Source: an uncultured archaeon
Lineage (GTDB): Archaea; Asgardarchaeota; Lokiarchaeia; Sigyniarchaeales; SOKP01
Reading direction: 5' to 3'
Length of the DNA stretch: 59,893 nt
Assembly: GCA_964493715.1 (NCBI GenBank)
Contig: CAZBPC010000013.1
Location: 1-59,893, forward strand
Shown: piece after piece, positions 7,055 to 29,885 of the stretch
Layout: each line of letters starts with the position of its first letter
Numbering within the stretch: position 1 is the first letter of the stretch
Translations under genes and position numbers: made by a program
The notes under the pieces: model-generated
Told to the model about the DNA's origin: nothing
Seen by the model: the letters and a program-made list of their open reading frames with translations, nothing else
Database searches by the model: none

Positions 7055-8341
7055 TTGAACAATATGGTTGACTATATTAATTTAAATTACGAACCAAGTG
7101 AAAAAGACCTTGTAGTAATGTATTATGTTGAAAAATCTAATGAGTGCAAAAGTTTAGAAAGCGCATCAGAAGAAATTGCAAAAGAAAGTTCTATTGGAAC
7201 GTGGACTGAAATAGCCACTTTATCCTCCGCCATTGCTAAACGTTTGAAGCCTTCAGTCTTTTATATAAATGAAGTTAATGGTATAATTAAAATAGCATAT
7301 CCAGAAGAATTATTTGAATTGAATAATATACCCCAAATTCTGAGCGCAATCGCAGGAAATATTTATGGAATGAAAGTAATAGAAAATTTGAGGTTAATTG
7401 ATGTAAAATTTCCAAAAAATATGATAGATGCTCATTATGGCCCTAAGTTTGGTATTAAGGGAATTAGAAAACTCCTTGGTATTGAAAATCGCCCGTTATT
7501 AGGGACAATTGTAAAACCAAAAGTTGGTTTAAATGAGATTGAACATGCTCATGTTTGTGGAGATGCGTGGATGGGGGGTTTAGACATTGTTAAAGATGAT
7601 GAAAATTTAACCAGCATGAAATTCAACACATTTCAAAAAAGAATTATTGAAACCTTAAAAGTTCGGGATAAAGTTGAGAAGGAGACTAACGAGAAAAAAA
7701 TATATATGCCAAATATCACAGCTAAGGTAGATATTATGAAAAAACGTGCAGATATTGTTATAGAAAATGGAGGAGAATATATCATGCTAGATATATTAAC
7801 TGTAGGATTTTCAGCTCTGCAAGAAATAAGAAGCTATCTCGATGATAAAAATATTGTGATCCATGCACACAGAGCAATGCACGCAGCACTTACTAGAAAT
7901 AAAAGACACGGGATGACAATGCTTTCTCTAGCAAAAATTATGCGCTTAATTGGGATGGATCAGCTGCATACAGGAACGATTGTAGGTAAAATGGAGGGAG
8001 ACAAACGTGAAGTTCAAGAGATTAATCATGTTATCACCAAAAAAGAGATTGAAGGTAATAATATTACCCAATTACCTCAAAATTGGGGATCAATCAATTC
8101 GATACTACCCGTAGCATCAGGAGGATTAAGTCCTTTACACATCCCAGACCTAATTGAACTTCTAGGGATAGATATGGTATTTCAATTCGGTGGGGGTTGT
8201 CATGGTCACCCCGATGGAACATTATCTGGAGCAAAAGCTATTCGGCAGGCCGTTGAAGCTACTCTTAAAGGAATTAGCCTAATTGAATATGCAAAAACAC
8301 ACGATGAGATAAAAAGAGCATTAAATAAATGGAAATTATAA
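7055..8341 (+). CDS. rbcL: RuBisCO large subunit, form III
   Basis: ESSIGTW, GTIVKPKVG, GLDIVKDDE (carbamylated Lys motif), HAHRAMH, loop-6 VGKMEG, ASGG, QFGGG. Confidence 0.95.
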   Translation: MNNMVDYINLNYEPSEKDLVVMYYVEKSNECKSLESASEEIAKESSIGTWTEIATLSSAIAKRLKPSVFYINEVNGIIKIAYPEELFELNNIPQILSAIAGNIYGMKVIENLRLIDVKFPKNMIDAHYGPKFGIKGIRKLLGIENRPLLGTIVKPKVGLNEIEHAHVCGDAWMGGLDIVKDDENLTSMKFNTFQKRIIETLKVRDKVEKETNEKKIYMPNITAKVDIMKKRADIVIENGGEYIMLDILTVGFSALQEIRSYLDDKNIVIHAHRAMHAALTRNKRHGMTMLSLAKIMRLIGMDQLHTGTIVGKMEGDKREVQEINHVITKKEIEGNNITQLPQNWGSINSILPVASGGLSPLHIPDLIELLGIDMVFQFGGGCHGHPDGTLSGAKAIRQAVEATLKGISLIEYAKTHDEIKRALNKWKL

Positions 8342-22710: not shown

Positions 22711-22906
22711 TATATTCGGAAATGAAATTGAGAAATTATATTACTCTCTAAATTCAATATTAATTCAATTTAAAAAACAAAACTATTCTTCTTTTTCATA
22801 ATCAAACTGAAATTCTTTGAGATTAACTGAATATGTAAATAATTAAATAGAAATTTTGACACTAATAATTTAAAAATATCAATAAATAAATCTGCAAGTG
22901 AAGCAT

Positions 22907-24379
22907 ATGGAAGAAAATGAAAAACAATTAACACCAGAGGAAATTGAGAAGCAAAAAGAGATTGTAGATAAGTTATATAGTAAAGAGAAAGAAGAACGAG
23001 ATGAATACTTTAAAGAATTCGAAGAGGAACGTAAAAAGAATTTCAAAGAAAGCAAAGAATTAATCTCAGCTCTTATTTCAGAAAAAGCATTTCACCGTGA
23101 AAAACATCGTCAAGAAGATTTACAGAGAATGGAAATAAAACCAGATATAGAGATGAAAGGAGAAGCAATTGAAAAAGATATCGAACAAAAAGCATTTATA
23201 AGAGAAAAACAGAGAGAAGATGACTTAAAACGAATGGATCTTAAACCAGATATCAAGGGAGTTGGAGAAATTATTGCTAAATCCATGAATGAGAAAGCTT
23301 TTTTAATCGAAAAAAAAAGGGAATCTGATATGCAACGAATAAAGATAAAACCAGATTTAGAAAAATCAATGGATGCTATTAGTAAATCAGTAGATGAAAA
23401 AGCTTTTATGATTCAGCGAAAGAGAGAGGATGACGAAAAAAGACATAAAATTAAACCAGATATAGAGACAAGCGCTCAAGCAATCAGTAAAACAATTAAT
23501 GAAAAAGCCTACTTTCGAGATATACAACGAGAAGAGGATTCAAAAAGGATGGAAATTCATCCAGACTTTAGAACAACAGGGGAAGCTATTGATAAAACCA
23601 TCGCAGAAAAAGCATTCAGGATTGATAAACAAAGGGAAATTGATCAAAATAGATTCAAGATCAAGCCAAATATCGAGGAAGCAACTTTAGCGATTAAGGA
23701 ATCTATTGATGAAAAAGCATTCAGAATTGAAAAGCAAAGAGAATTGAATCAAAAGAGAATGGAGCTCACCCCCGATATTGAAAAATCTGCTCAAGCCATT
23801 AGCAAGACAATCGCAGAGAAATCTTTTTTAAGAGAAAAACAAAGAGAAGATGATTTAAAGCGCATGGAAATTCATCCTGAATTTAGAAAAACAGGAGAAG
23901 CAATTAATAAAACCATCGCAGAAAAAGCATTCAGGATTGATAAACAAAGAGAGGTAGATGAGAAGCGGTTAGCCATTAGACCGGATAAGGAAAAAATAAG
24001 TGGTGCCATAGGAAAAACCATTGAAGAGAAAGCATTCTTTAGAGAAAAACTAAGAGAAGATGATCAAAAAAGGGTTACTATCAAACCTGATTTAGTCTCT
24101 GCAAGCGAAGCTATAAAATCATCAATAGATCAGAAAGCTTTCAGGATTGAGAAGAAAAGAGAAATTGATCATGAACGAATGGAATTACGTCCTGAATTTG
24201 AAAAAACAAGTGAAATTATTGAAAAAGCATTTGAAGAAAAAACATTTTATAGAGAGAAACAAAGAGAAGAGGATCGTAAACGATTTGAAGTTAAACCTGA
24301 CATAAAGGGACTTGGAGAAAAACTGGAGAAAAAAATTGAAAAAATCGAAGAAAAGAAGCGAGATGAAAATCTAAATTAA
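22907..24379 (+). CDS. Highly charged 35-aa tandem-repeat protein (nebulin-like candidate)
   Basis: 12 contiguous 35-aa units; ATG at 22907 (ORF track uses GTG 22898); no TM segment or signal peptide. Confidence 0.85.
   Translation: MEENEKQLTPEEIEKQKEIVDKLYSKEKEERDEYFKEFEEERKKNFKESKELISALISEKAFHREKHRQEDLQRMEIKPDIEMKGEAIEKDIEQKAFIREKQREDDLKRMDLKPDIKGVGEIIAKSMNEKAFLIEKKRESDMQRIKIKPDLEKSMDAISKSVDEKAFMIQRKREDDEKRHKIKPDIETSAQAISKTINEKAYFRDIQREEDSKRMEIHPDFRTTGEAIDKTIAEKAFRIDKQREIDQNRFKIKPNIEEATLAIKESIDEKAFRIEKQRELNQKRMELTPDIEKSAQAISKTIAEKSFLREKQREDDLKRMEIHPEFRKTGEAINKTIAEKAFRIDKQREVDEKRLAIRPDKEKISGAIGKTIEEKAFFREKLREDDQKRVTIKPDLVSASEAIKSSIDQKAFRIEKKREIDHERMELRPEFEKTSEIIEKAFEEKTFYREKQREEDRKRFEVKPDIKGLGEKLEKKIEKIEEKKRDENLN
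23075..24334 (+). repeat. 12 x 105-bp coding tandem repeat with 315-bp higher-order similarity
   Basis: 1260 bp = 12 x 105 with no indels; near-identical segments begin at 23549 and 23864. Confidence 0.95.
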
Positions 24380-24395
24380 ATTATTGTTAATTATT

Positions 24396-24887
24396 TTAAA
24401 ATCCAAAATTGTGATTAAAATTAGTGTTTAAGTTACTTATTTCTAATCTTTTTTTATAGTTAAGAATTGATGGCTCAATTCTACCATCAAAATGGTTGAT
24501 GCTTCCCTCAAATCTTGAGTAGAAATCATGAACAATCTGCTTTAGTATTGATCTTTCAATAGTTAAGTTTGTTTTCCGGGTAATAGCAACCACTAATAAT
24601 CTTCCGTATCTCTCATATAAAATTCTTGTTTCATCGAAGTTGATTTCTTGAATCTCTTCAGACTTGCTACCCGGTTTTACTTCTTTAATGAATAAGTACA
24701 ATGCATTTAAAAAACCTCCAATTAAATCCACATCAATTGCGCTATTTGGATTTAATGAATATTCTTTACTTAACAATAGAGATCCTGTTAGTTTATCTAG
24801 AAAATAAATAGCCAGAAATCGATTAGAATTAGCCTCTTGTTGTTTAATACCAAAACCATATGATTTAATATTTGAATTTGGATACAT
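24396..24887 (-). CDS. Longin-like domain protein
   Basis: AIYFLDKLTGSLLLSKEY...DLIGGFLNALYLFIKEV...IQEINF...LLVVAIT...LKQIVHDFYSRF: beta-beta-alpha-beta-beta-beta-alpha-alpha pattern. Confidence 0.75.
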   Translation of the reverse strand: MYPNSNIKSYGFGIKQQEANSNRFLAIYFLDKLTGSLLLSKEYSLNPNSAIDVDLIGGFLNALYLFIKEVKPGSKSEEIQEINFDETRILYERYGRLLVVAITRKTNLTIERSILKQIVHDFYSRFEGSINHFDGRIEPSILNYKKRLEISNLNTNFNHNFGF

Positions 24888-25113: not shown

Positions 25114-25590
25114 TTGTTGATAATGGAAGTTAACTCAAACTTGAATGACCAAAAAAAAAAAATTTCAACCGGTTTAATTATAAGTAGAGAAACTTTAGAT
25201 CAAACATTTTTTCCCGAGGAAATAAAAGAGGAGATTTCAAAAACTCCTTATTATCTTCTTATATTTATTTCTCGGGAGGATGTTATAAAGATTAGTTGTT
25301 TTCCAACCAAAAATAATTCAATTAAAAAGATTTTAATTAAGCTAGAAGAATTTTCTCCAGAAATTGTGAAAGGAATTTCGGAAGTCTTAAATAAATTAAA
25401 CTTGATTAAAGATATCCTTCATACAACGGGAATATGTTATGAATTAGAAAATTGTTTTTATGAAACATATTTAATAGGAGATTTAATAAATCAAAATTCT
25501 GAATATGATAAGAAAATTGAGCAAGAATTTATAAAATTACCAAGAGTCAGCAGTGTTGTAATAGAAGACATCCCAACTCAAGAAGGTTAA
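25114..25590 (+). CDS. Hypothetical protein with possible C-terminal ACT-like domain (ATG at 25123)
   Basis: ILIKL..FSPEIVKGISEVL...ILHTTG...YETYL...LPRVSSVVIE ferredoxin-like pattern. Confidence 0.55.
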   Translation: MLIMEVNSNLNDQKKKISTGLIISRETLDQTFFPEEIKEEISKTPYYLLIFISREDVIKISCFPTKNNSIKKILIKLEEFSPEIVKGISEVLNKLNLIKDILHTTGICYELENCFYETYLIGDLINQNSEYDKKIEQEFIKLPRVSSVVIEDIPTQEG

Positions 25591-25640: not shown

Positions 25641-26033
25641 CTATAAATTGGTTTTTATAGAACTTAAAGTTCTCCAAGTTTTCCAAAAAATTAACAACAT
25701 GATTATGAAGATAAACAAAGCTGTAACGAAAGTATATCCTCCGATAAATGGATCCACTAATATCATAAATAATATACCTGCTATTGAAAAGCCTATCATG
25801 TATCCATACCCCCAATAACGATCTCTTAAAGAAATTATAATAGCAGGAATAAATGTGGTTAAAATTATTGATAAAAACGCAAGAACTTCAACACTTCGAG
25901 GAGAATTTTGAATTATAATCATGTTAAACCACGAAATTACAAAACCAACAATACAAAATAAAAAAGTTTTATAACTTACTTTAAAATCTGGTTCAGAGTT
26001 ACGAATACGTTGTATCTTATCAATATCGTTCAT
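25641..26033 (-). CDS. Small integral membrane protein (about 4 TM)
   Basis: Four hydrophobic segments in 130 aa. Confidence 0.75.
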   Translation of the reverse strand: MNDIDKIQRIRNSEPDFKVSYKTFLFCIVGFVISWFNMIIIQNSPRSVEVLAFLSIILTTFIPAIIISLRDRYWGYGYMIGFSIAGILFMILVDPFIGGYTFVTALFIFIIMLLIFWKTWRTLSSIKTNL

Positions 26034-29348: not shown

Positions 29349-29885
29349 ATGATGAATGAAGAACGTGAATATGTGTTTAAAATTACGCTTCTCGGTGATG
29401 CTGCTGTTGGTAAGACATCATTGATAAATCAGTTTGTTGAAAATACATTTCAAGAAGATTACAAACCAACTTTAGGTGCAAATATTATCCGTAAAGATGT
29501 AATATTGGAAGAGTTAAACGCTAAAGTGAGATTAATCGTTTGGGATCTTGCTGGACAAGAAAAGTATAATGTAGTAAGAAGTTTGTATTATCAAGGATGC
29601 GTTGGTGCTTTATTGGTTTATGATGTCACTCGGATTGTCACTTTTGAGAGTATTGTGTCGAAATGGCTTAATGATTTTAAAAAATATGTTAAAAGAGAAG
29701 GAGTATACTTGTTACTTGGCAATAAAAGTGATTTGAATGAACAGAGGGTGGTCCAAACCAGCGATGGAACTAAATTGGCCGAAAAAATTAACGCTAGTAA
29801 ATTCATTGAAACAAGTGCGAAATTCGGTGAAAATGTAAATAATGCCTTTAAAACACTTGTATATCAGATTCTTGAAAATCAATGA
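29349..29885 (+). CDS. Rab/Ras-like small GTPase
   Basis: GDAAVGKT, PTLG, WDLAGQE, NKSD, ETSAK; no C-terminal Cys motif. Confidence 0.95.
   Translation: MMNEEREYVFKITLLGDAAVGKTSLINQFVENTFQEDYKPTLGANIIRKDVILEELNAKVRLIVWDLAGQEKYNVVRSLYYQGCVGALLVYDVTRIVTFESIVSKWLNDFKKYVKREGVYLLLGNKSDLNEQRVVQTSDGTKLAEKINASKFIETSAKFGENVNNAFKTLVYQILENQ

What the first reader, a model, noticed from the sequence alone, without database searches (positions are those of the whole stretch)
22907..24379. Candidate nebulin-like actin-filament-binding protein: 12 exact 35-aa repeats in an Asgard archaeon
Seen in sequence: 23075-24334 encodes 12 contiguous 35-residue units with no indels, consensus h-x-(E/Q)-K-A-(F/Y)-x-x-E-K-Q-R-E-x-D-x-K-R-h-x-h-x-P-(D/E)-h-x5-A-I-x-K-(S/T). 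Pro, Lys, two Arg and the aromatic position are kept in every unit. The protein is highly charged, helical-looking, and has no TM or catalytic domain. Established: nebulin/nebulette/LASP modules are about 35 aa, contain an SDxxYK motif preceded by a Pro-acidic-hydrophobic helix start, and bind one actin subunit each; Asgard archaea have polymerising actin. Inference: PD-h...A....(S/N/D/A)EKA(F/Y) parallels PE-h...A....SDxxYK with one extra residue, and 35 helical residues (about 5.3 nm) match the about 5.5 nm actin subunit spacing. It may be a filament side-binder or ruler for Lokiactin, by homology or convergence. I know of no described prokaryotic nebulin-like protein.
Basis: partly seen in the sequence, partly recalled or inferred. 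Interest (0 to 1): 0.9.

Follow-up and report, generated by a model that had tools for sequence, protein, structure and literature searches.

The report
Orphan 35-residue helical repeat protein
A real, conserved gene of an Asgard archaeon encodes twelve exact 35-residue helical repeats of unknown function; it is not a recognisable relative of nebulin, and whether it lies along actin filaments remains untested.

Summary
Residues 60-479 are 12 contiguous 35-aa units without indels; K4, R12, R18, P23 and F/Y6 are kept in 12 of 12 units. The gene is under purifying selection (dN/dS 0.10-0.20). The genome is a Promethearchaeota (Asgard) MAG with true actin and gelsolin genes. AlphaFold2, run twice, gives one roughly 31-residue helix per unit and a 4-residue break at the Pro, with no confident tertiary packing (pTM 0.18 and 0.21). 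Nothing supports homology to nebulin: the Pfam Nebulin model does not match, and no PDB sequence or fold match was found. The family is confined to one GTDB family (107 of 132 genomes). Weak relatives in sister families have units of 37 and 40-41 aa. Actin stays 95-100% identical even in genera where this protein was not found. Best reading: a lineage-specific elongated helical-repeat scaffold whose partner is unknown. I put actin side-binding at about 0.12.

The parts
22870..22879 (+). A+T-rich TATA-box-like element about 20-28 nt upstream of the GTG start; suggests a leaderless or near-leaderless mRNA (inferred)
   Evidence: Read directly from the sequence. The single metatranscriptome contig laid here begins at 22892, 6 nt before the GTG. 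That is weak evidence: one 151-nt contig at depth 2.
22898..24379 (+). Complete CDS, 493 aa, GTG start, TAA stop; about 59 kDa, pI 7.7, net charge +1
   Evidence: Orthologues in 23 of 24 other genomes of the genus. GTG start in 15 of 15. dN/dS 0.10-0.20. Single copy in its genome.
22898..23074 (+). N-terminal unique region (residues 1-59), acidic (pI 5.0), predicted helical; the best-conserved part of the protein and the part shared with distant relatives in sister families
   Evidence: Invariant columns. Highest pLDDT (77-87). Shared with the G030, G029 and G027 homologues. No PDB match (best Geminin, E 0.021).
23075..24334 (+). Twelve tandem 35-aa units (residues 60-479), net +7, pI 9.0. Each is predicted as one roughly 31-residue helix (position 24 to position 19-20 of the next unit) plus a 4-residue break around h-K-P-D
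24335..24379 (+). C-terminal 14-residue charged tail and stop codon; conserved in the genus
   Evidence: Invariant and near-invariant columns 477-487.

Best explanation
The gene encodes a lineage-specific, non-globular helical-repeat scaffold. It is a chain of twelve stiff, highly charged helices of about 31 residues, joined by short Pro-containing turns. A more conserved acidic N-terminal helix precedes the array. On a helical wheel the best-kept residues lie on two faces. One face carries a narrow Ile/Ala seam (positions 25, 28, 32, 1, 5, 8) continued by K4, R12, D15 and R18. The opposite face carries F6, E13, E30 and K34. I read each unit as one copy of a repeated binding surface. The protein would then lie along, or link, something periodic: other copies of itself or an unidentified cytoplasmic partner. 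The N-terminal region would act as the anchoring or pairing module.

It is not a detectable homologue of nebulin, TPR/PPR, GvpC or apolipoproteins.

Shown: the gene is real and conserved, the period is exact, helices are predicted, no known family matches, and the taxonomic range is narrow. Inferred: the extended shape, the repeated binding face, and the role as scaffold or tether.
For: The repeat is exact and far above chance. The period is kept in 820 of 831 unit spacings across 91 homologue frames, some genomes counted twice. Selection is purifying, dN/dS 0.10-0.20. The protein was found in 107 of 132 genomes of its GTDB family.

AlphaFold2 on the whole protein (15-row alignment) gave pLDDT 66 and pTM 0.18. 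On a 4-unit fragment (93-row alignment) it gave pLDDT 66 and pTM 0.21. Both gave one 29-33-residue helix per unit broken at the Pro, and no compact fold. Foldseek found 0 PDB matches for either model.

Conserved residues are position-specific charges plus a narrow hydrophobic seam. The N-terminal region is the most conserved part and is shared with sister-family relatives whose repeats differ. Unit number is narrow: 11 or 12 units in 15 of 15 same-genus orthologues. Among 32 genes judged complete out of 77 family loci, the counts were 12 units x13, 11 x12, 10 x3, 9 x1, 8 x1 and 6 x2. Units at the ends of the array keep positional orthology while inner units do not: the same-index unit is the best match for 6 of 12 units.
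Against: Both structure models are of low confidence (pLDDT 66), so the absence of a compact fold is weak evidence. No partner is identified. Neighbouring genes give no functional hint. The helices are not amphipathic beyond chance: mean hydrophobic moment 0.241 against 0.229 +/- 0.034 in shuffles. The 'binding face' therefore rests on conservation alone. Expression is barely documented, by one 151-nt metatranscriptome contig. Self-association was not tested.
Confidence: 0.4

Rival explanations
1. Nebulin-like F-actin side-binder or ruler by convergence. Each 35-aa unit would contact one Lokiactin subunit along a filament strand, stabilising filaments or setting a length of about 12 subunits.
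For: The genome has a true actin (Pfam Actin 440 bits) and gelsolin-domain genes. The Lokiactin filament rise is 27.9 A per subunit, hence 55.8 A along one strand (PMC9834061, passages). One unit (46.5 A helix plus up to 14 A linker, or 52.5 A as a continuous helix) can span that. The period is strictly kept and unit number is narrow. The repeat region is basic (pI 9.0) and the actin acidic (pI 5.2). No compact fold is predicted. The 37-aa Pro-less units of the G030 relative would measure 55.5 A as a straight helix (my arithmetic). Papers read name only profilins and gelsolins as Asgard actin-binding proteins (PMC13716822 and PMC11853071, passages), so the niche is open.
Against: There is no sequence match to the Pfam Nebulin model. 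Pfam finds no SH3 or LIM module or any other domain. The protein occurs in only one GTDB family of the phylum. It was not found in genera g17 (0 of 2) and g23 (0 of 7), whose actin is 95-100% identical to this genome's. The unit length is 37 aa in one sister-family relative and 40-41 aa in two others. No actin, gelsolin or profilin gene lies near it; actin is on contig C41 and gelsolins are on C12, C18, C25, C37 and C38. The length match is loose and would fit other lattices.
Confidence: 0.12
2. Compact alpha-solenoid derived from a TPR/PPR-like helix-turn-helix repeat. Each unit would be a hairpin (helix 24-34, turn near 35-2, helix 3-20) and the array a protein- or RNA-binding superhelix.
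For: The period of 35 aa equals PPR and is one more than TPR. The h-x-h-x-P-D end of the unit resembles the TPR/PPR inter-repeat loop. Two 759-aa TPR proteins were hit at E 5e-9 and 1.8e-5 in the 1.84-billion-protein search, and at BLASTP E 3e-14 pairwise. A designed PPR came up at E 0.026 in PDB. Position 2 is Gly in 40% of family units and position 35 is Ser/Thr in 78%, which could cap or break the helix there.
Against: No Pfam TPR or PPR model matches this protein at E<=10 or any of 15 orthologues at E<=1. The pairwise score is the sum of about eight weak, non-independent unit matches centred on the K-P-D motif. Positions that would correspond to the TPR small-residue core are Lys, Gln and Arg here (the TPR signature itself is recalled). 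About half of all residues are charged. AlphaFold2 predicts a continuous helix through the supposed turn and no packing, twice, and Foldseek finds no solenoid.
Confidence: 0.12
3. Partner-less polyampholyte: a hydrophilin/LEA-like protectant or entropic spacer whose repeats only need to stay charged and helical.
For: Composition is extreme (50% charged, GRAVY -1.29). Model confidence is low. The relatives come from sediment and salt-marsh metagenomes (coded run records; the main holder may be the source sample).
Against: Specific residues are kept at 85-96% over 752 units, including an aromatic, Ile and Pro, and the period is exact. Generic charge or helicity would not require either. The N-terminal region is conserved.
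Confidence: 0.08
4. Surface binder of a membrane, lipid body or gas vesicle through Pro-punctuated amphipathic helices (apolipoprotein- or GvpC-like).
For: Helices punctuated by Pro recall apolipoproteins. Apolipoprotein A-IV appears at E 0.11 in the PDB profile search. GvpC has repeats of about 33 aa (recalled).
Against: The hydrophobic moment is not above shuffles, and the hydrophobic seam is narrow and made of Ile and Ala. No Pfam hit to GvpC or apolipoprotein models. No GvpA was found in the genome, although that search's controls were silent, so it is inconclusive.
Confidence: 0.04

Closest known systems
Nebulin / nebulette / LASP repeats (Pfam PF00880)
   Same: Tandem units of about 35 aa, largely helical, with many copies in a row. 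The repeat region is basic. The unit begins with a Pro-acidic-hydrophobic helix start and contains a conserved aromatic next to Lys. The unit length is compatible with one actin subunit.
   Different: The Nebulin HMM does not match. The conserved motif is E-K-A-F, not SDxxYK (the latter recalled). There is no 7-unit super-repeat, only a local 3-unit duplication, and no SH3 or LIM module. The protein has 12 units and 59 kDa, against hundreds of units in nebulin (recalled). Actin binding is untested.
TPR (34 aa) and PPR (35 aa) helical hairpin repeats
   Same: Same or nearly the same period. The h-x-h-x-P-D inter-repeat motif is shared. There is a weak cumulative pairwise similarity to two TPR proteins.
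   Different: No Pfam TPR or PPR match. Charged residues sit where the hairpin core would be. One long helix per unit is predicted instead of a hairpin, with no solenoid packing.
Exchangeable apolipoproteins (A-I, A-IV): Pro-punctuated helical repeats
   Same: A string of long helices separated by Pro. There is a sub-threshold PDB profile hit to apolipoprotein A-IV (E 0.11).
   Different: The period is 35 aa, not 11/22 (recalled). The helices are not amphipathic above chance. No Pfam match.
ER/K-rich single alpha-helix (SAH) segments
   Same: The C-terminal third of each helix (positions 9-18) is a run of E, K, R, Q and D. Opposite charges are frequent at i+3 and i+4: 69 and 62 pairs, against 42 and 46 at i+6 and i+7.
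   Different: The helix is broken every 35 residues by Pro. It has position-specific invariant residues and a hydrophobic seam, which generic SAH domains lack (recalled).
GvpC of gas vesicles (about 33-aa repeats)
   Same: A short array of charged helical repeats thought to lie across a periodic protein lattice (recalled).
   Different: No Pfam hit to the GvpC family. No GvpA gene was found, with the caveat that the controls were silent.

Membership tests
Nebulin repeat family (PF00880) | Match to the Nebulin repeat profile (SDxxYK-type module) | tested here: not met
   hmmscan of the protein at E<=10 lists no Nebulin, and none in 15 orthologues at E<=1. A whole-genome scan with PF00880 at E<=10 hits only contig C72 at E 1.16, not this gene, and 9 of 14 control genomes ring at that level. 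HMMER filters may hide very weak matches. No profile-profile (HHpred) test was possible.
Nebulin repeat family (PF00880) | Tandem units of about 35 residues | tested here: met
   12 units of exactly 35 aa; 820 of 831 spacings equal 35 in the family.
Nebulin repeat family (PF00880) | Seven-unit super-repeat (recalled as typical of nebulin proper) | tested here: not met
   Autocorrelation is flat over multiples of 35 (0.47-0.52), with a slight excess at 105. TRF finds a 105-bp period only.
Nebulin repeat family (PF00880) | Accessory modules (SH3, LIM, Ser-rich linker; recalled) | tested here: not met
   No Pfam domain reaches its cut-off.
Nebulin repeat family (PF00880) | Binds F-actin laterally, one unit per actin subunit | not testable with these tools
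Only the length compatibility could be computed.
TPR / PPR repeats | Match to Pfam TPR or PPR profiles | tested here: not met
   None listed at E<=10 for the protein or at E<=1 for 15 orthologues. The same tool finds 24-28 TPR-type models in the two TPR proteins that the protein weakly resembles.
TPR / PPR repeats | Each unit folds as an antiparallel helix hairpin that stacks into a solenoid | tested here: inconclusive
   AlphaFold2 twice predicts one continuous helix per unit and no packing, but at pLDDT 66 and pTM about 0.2. Foldseek found 0 hits.
Apolipoprotein-type amphipathic helical repeats | Strongly amphipathic helices (high hydrophobic moment) | tested here: not met
   Mean moment 0.241 against 0.229 +/- 0.034 for shuffles.
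GvpC (gas vesicle protein C) | Profile match, and presence of the GvpA shell gene in the genome | tested here: inconclusive
   No GvpC match in Pfam scans. PF00741 was not found in the genome, but nothing rang in the control genomes either.
Entericidin EcnA/B (PF08085) | Small lipoprotein matching the 20-position profile as one stretch | tested here: not met
   7 of 15 orthologues reach whole-protein E down to 2.8e-12, but no single stretch passes. The match is a 12-residue motif (profile 8-19) summed over repeats. The window protein itself does not match.

The most novel reading that the evidence does not exclude
The protein is a prokaryotic, convergently evolved lateral binder of Lokiactin filaments. 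One 35-aa helix-plus-turn unit would lie on each actin subunit of a strand, and a conserved N-terminal anchor would fix one end. It would therefore stabilise or measure filament stretches of 11-12 subunits (about 60-67 nm). That would be the first nebulin- or tropomyosin-type side-binding or ruler protein outside eukaryotes. The sister-family versions with 37-aa Pro-less units (55.5 A as a straight helix) would be a second solution to the same spacing.
Probability: 0.12. Interest if true: 0.85.

Novelty: new variant of a known kind. Interest (0 to 1): 0.42.

Why it matters
[quoted passage not shown] The papers I read name only profilins and gelsolins as Asgard actin regulators. My searches for 'Asgard' with 'nebulin' (4 papers, none relevant) and for 'Asgard archaea' with 'tropomyosin' (14 papers, listing only) turned up no side-binding or ruler protein. 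A filament-length or filament-stabilising protein in an Asgard lineage would therefore be a real addition to the story of cytoskeleton evolution.

Even without that, this is a clean orphan family that is easy to express: 59 kDa, soluble-looking and single copy. Its repeat period is exceptionally strict, which makes it a tractable object for structural work on non-globular helical repeats. As it stands, the evidence shows an unexplained conserved protein, not an actin-binding protein.

Tried and rejected
Complex prediction. The tool answered NOT FOLDED because one chain looks eukaryotic. It says nothing about binding.

Word-index homology searches. The whole protein at near lengths and the 4-unit profile at longer lengths each returned none of 8000 scored candidates. 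The tool says crowding by low-complexity words makes this weak evidence. No fused form was seen among open frames in 112 matching genomes (longest frame 555 aa).

ESM Atlas: no usable hit.

Foldseek against PDB: 0 hits for both models, which is expected for low-pTM models.

PDB sequence and profile searches. For the whole protein the best hits were designed helical proteins at E 0.013-0.026. For the 4-unit profile the best were designed coiled-coil barrels at E 0.023 and apolipoprotein A-IV at E 0.11. For the N-terminal profile the best was Geminin at E 0.021. None is significant.

Mean-field direct-coupling analysis on 652 distinct two-unit windows (effective number 336). The only strong couplings join positions 7, 11 and 26 of one unit. 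These track unit subtypes, not a recognisable contact pattern. There is no evidence for hairpin or inter-unit contacts, but the rows are not independent.

The first unit-orthology matrix had two of nine comparison rows out of register and was replaced.

Reads. One RNA-library contig covers 22892-23042. The rest of the gene has no RNA cover in that run, which shows nothing. DNA runs X2 and X4 cover the gene.

The GvpA and profilin family scans of the genome found nothing, but their control genomes were silent too, so neither shows absence.

Supplementary files of papers were not consulted. Supplementary lists of Asgard proteins in the cited papers could mention this family, and I could not see them.
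Full report
OBSERVATION. The window holds an open reading frame at 22898..24379 on the + strand, 493 aa. Cutting the translation every 35 residues from residue 60 (nt 23075) gives 12 units in perfect register up to residue 479 (nt 24334). K4, R12, R18 and P23 are present in 12 of 12 units, and position 6 is F in 11 units and Y in 1. Mean pairwise unit identity is 49%. Residue autocorrelation at lag 35 is 0.483, while the maximum over lags 10-99 in 1000 shuffles never exceeded 0.165. At DNA level only a degenerate 105-bp period is seen (64% matches), so the array is old and not an assembly artefact. The only correction is the start codon.

THE GENE IS REAL.
- A protein search of 40 related genomes found it in 23 of 24 other genomes of the genus at 56-85% identity.
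- All 15 orthologues that I extracted begin at the homologous GTG. Eleven of the 15 are 492-494 aa (12 units) and four are 455-458 aa (11 units).
- Only the window and its nearest relative have Met at residue 4, so 22898, not 22907, is the start.
- dN/dS is 0.196 against the nearest orthologue and 0.10-0.17 in five other close pairs.
- The gene is single-copy in its genome.
- An A+T-rich TATA-like element lies at 22870-22879.
- The only RNA-library contig laid on the region starts at 22892 and runs to 23042 (151 nt, depth 2). This is a weak hint of a near-leaderless transcript and no more.

ORGANISM.
- The window is contig C13 of a 3.68-Mb genome in 160 contigs, rated 100% complete.
- It encodes four actin-family genes, the best at 440 bits to Pfam Actin.
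- It has seven gelsolin-domain matches.
- Related public contigs carrying the same gene are titled Promethearchaeota or Promethearchaeia archaeon. A few carry other Asgard labels, and one carries an evidently wrong bacterial label.

PREDICTED STRUCTURE.
- AlphaFold2 with the 15 orthologues gave mean pLDDT 66.4 and pTM 0.18. It predicted a long N-terminal helix (13-114) and then helices of 29-33 residues, with breaks of 1-7 residues (mostly 4-6) at the h-x-h-K-P segment.
- A second run on four units, with a 93-row alignment of non-redundant 4-unit windows from the whole family, gave the same picture: helices 25-55, 60-90 and 95-125, four-residue breaks, pLDDT 66.4, pTM 0.21.
- Neither model matched anything in the PDB by Foldseek.
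- No compact solenoid is predicted, but the confidence is low, so this is only moderate evidence for an extended chain of helices.
- The helices are not amphipathic beyond chance: mean moment 0.241 against 0.229 +/- 0.034.
- On a helical wheel, Ile/Ala positions 25, 28, 32, 1, 5 and 8 form a narrow seam that K4, R12, D15 and R18 continue. F6, E13, E30 and K34 lie on the opposite side (angles, conservation).

TESTS AGAINST KNOWN FAMILIES.
- Pfam lists no Nebulin, TPR, PPR, GvpC or apolipoprotein model for the protein at E<=10, or for any of 15 orthologues at E<=1.
- The Nebulin model scanned over the whole genome at E<=10 hits only an unrelated 60-aa frame at E 1.16, a level at which 9 of 14 control genomes also ring.
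- PDB sequence searches with the protein, a 4-unit profile and an N-terminal profile give nothing below E 0.01.
- An apparent Entericidin match in 7 of 15 orthologues is a 12-residue motif summed over repeats, with no single passing stretch.
- The one notable similarity is to two 759-aa TPR proteins: E 5e-9 and 1.8e-5 in the search of 1.84 billion proteins, and BLASTP 3e-14 pairwise. The alignment shows the shared part to be the h-x-h-K-P-D inter-repeat motif plus scattered charges, repeated about eight times with a one-residue gap per unit. Such scores add non-independent unit matches, and the positions that would form a TPR core are charged here. I keep a TPR-like origin or fold as a rival at about 0.12.

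DISTRIBUTION.
- Full HMMER against 1.84 billion representative proteins found only 44 hits at E<=0.001. Apart from the two 759-aa TPR proteins, they are 42-405 aa long, mostly fragments, and those I inspected are of the same family.
- A profile search of 398 genomes of the phylum found the protein in 112 (including the window's own genome). By GTDB family the counts were 107 of 132 in its own family, 1 of 14 and 2 of 4 in two sister families of the same order, 1 of 12 (E 1e-4) in one other family, and 0 in all other families. Within the family it was not found in genera g17 (0 of 2) or g23 (0 of 7).
- Across 91 homologue frames, 820 of 831 unit-to-unit spacings are exactly 35 and 7 are 32 (some genomes entered twice).
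- The sister-family relatives share the N-terminal region but not the repeat. One has six Pro-less units of 37 aa, and two have units of 40-41 aa.
- Synteny (DUF362, the repeat gene, then three small ORFs without Pfam match) is kept across the family: 62-69 of 77 loci. This is ordinary family-level synteny and carries no functional hint. The wider window is housekeeping.

THE ACTIN QUESTION. In favour:
- The organism has actin.
- The published Lokiactin filament has a rise of 27.9 A per subunit (PMC9834061, passages read), hence 55.8 A along a strand. A unit modelled as a 46.5-A helix plus up to 14 A of linker can span it.
- The repeat region is basic (pI 9.0) and the actin acidic (pI 5.2).
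- Period and unit number are tightly kept.

Against:
- There is no homology to nebulin.
- The actin is 95-100% identical across the whole family, including the two genera in which this protein was not found. Actin function therefore does not depend on it, and nothing co-varies with it.
- The unit length changes in sister families.
- No cytoskeletal gene lies nearby.

I therefore put actin side-binding at about 0.12. That is well above a random orphan protein, but far from established.

BEST READING. The protein is a lineage-specific elongated helical-repeat scaffold. It is anchored or paired through its conserved N-terminal helix and presents one conserved surface per 35 residues to a periodic partner or to itself (confidence about 0.4). 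The end units keep positional orthology across the genus while inner units have turned over: the same-index unit is the best match for 6 of 12 units, with diagonal identity 0.57 against 0.48 off the diagonal. The total nevertheless stays at 11-12, which fits selection on overall length. This last point is an inference.

NOVELTY AND LIMITS. The family has no Pfam model and no relative of known function. Its general kind, a Pro-punctuated helical tandem repeat, is known. In my two literature searches on the point ('Asgard' with 'nebulin'; 'Asgard archaea' with 'tropomyosin', listing only) I found no paper describing such a protein in Asgard archaea. Nebulin's properties (SDxxYK, one module per actin, 7-module super-repeats, SH3) are recalled, apart from the abstract line of PMC2289916 seen in a search listing. 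No profile-profile search, no multimer model and no experiment were available.

Noticed in passing
window 24396-24887 (-), 25114-25590 (+), 25641-26033 (-): Three small ORFs (163, 158 and 130 aa; the last looks membrane-embedded) have no Pfam match even at E<=5. They stay next to the repeat gene in 69, 67 and 65 of 77 family loci. Their function is unknown. By eye the 163-aa protein resembles a roadblock/longin-type fold; this was not tested.
   Followed up: partly
window 29349-29885 (+): A Ras-family small GTPase (Pfam Ras 168 bits, Roc 104 bits), a typical Asgard eukaryotic-signature protein, lies about 5 kb downstream of the repeat gene.
   Followed up: no
window 7055-8341 (+): A RuBisCO large-chain homologue (catalytic domain 296 bits) lies in a heterotroph-like Asgard genome. 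It is presumably the archaeal form III type; this was not checked.
   Followed up: no
G000 contigs C41, C46, C29, C1; relatives: The main actin (381 aa) is 95-100% identical across 13 of 13 genera of the family. Several genomes carry a second actin at 81-84% identity, and some a third at 46-51%.
   Followed up: partly
L053: One public contig carrying a 59%-identical orthologue of this archaeal gene is titled as a Nanopelagicaceae bacterium MAG. Others are labelled Hod-, Odin-, Hermod- or Thorarchaeota, although the genome search places all strong matches in one GTDB family. The record labels are probably loose or the bins mixed.
   Followed up: no
P0001, P0005: Some metagenomic relatives have a C-terminal extension after the repeats with a shared short Trp-containing motif that is absent from the window protein. 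Its meaning is unknown.
   Followed up: no
window 23519-23952: Units 5-7 and 8-10 look like an old duplication of a 3-unit block (TRF period 105 bp, 4.1 copies, 64% matches). This also explains the slightly higher autocorrelation at lag 105.
   Followed up: partly
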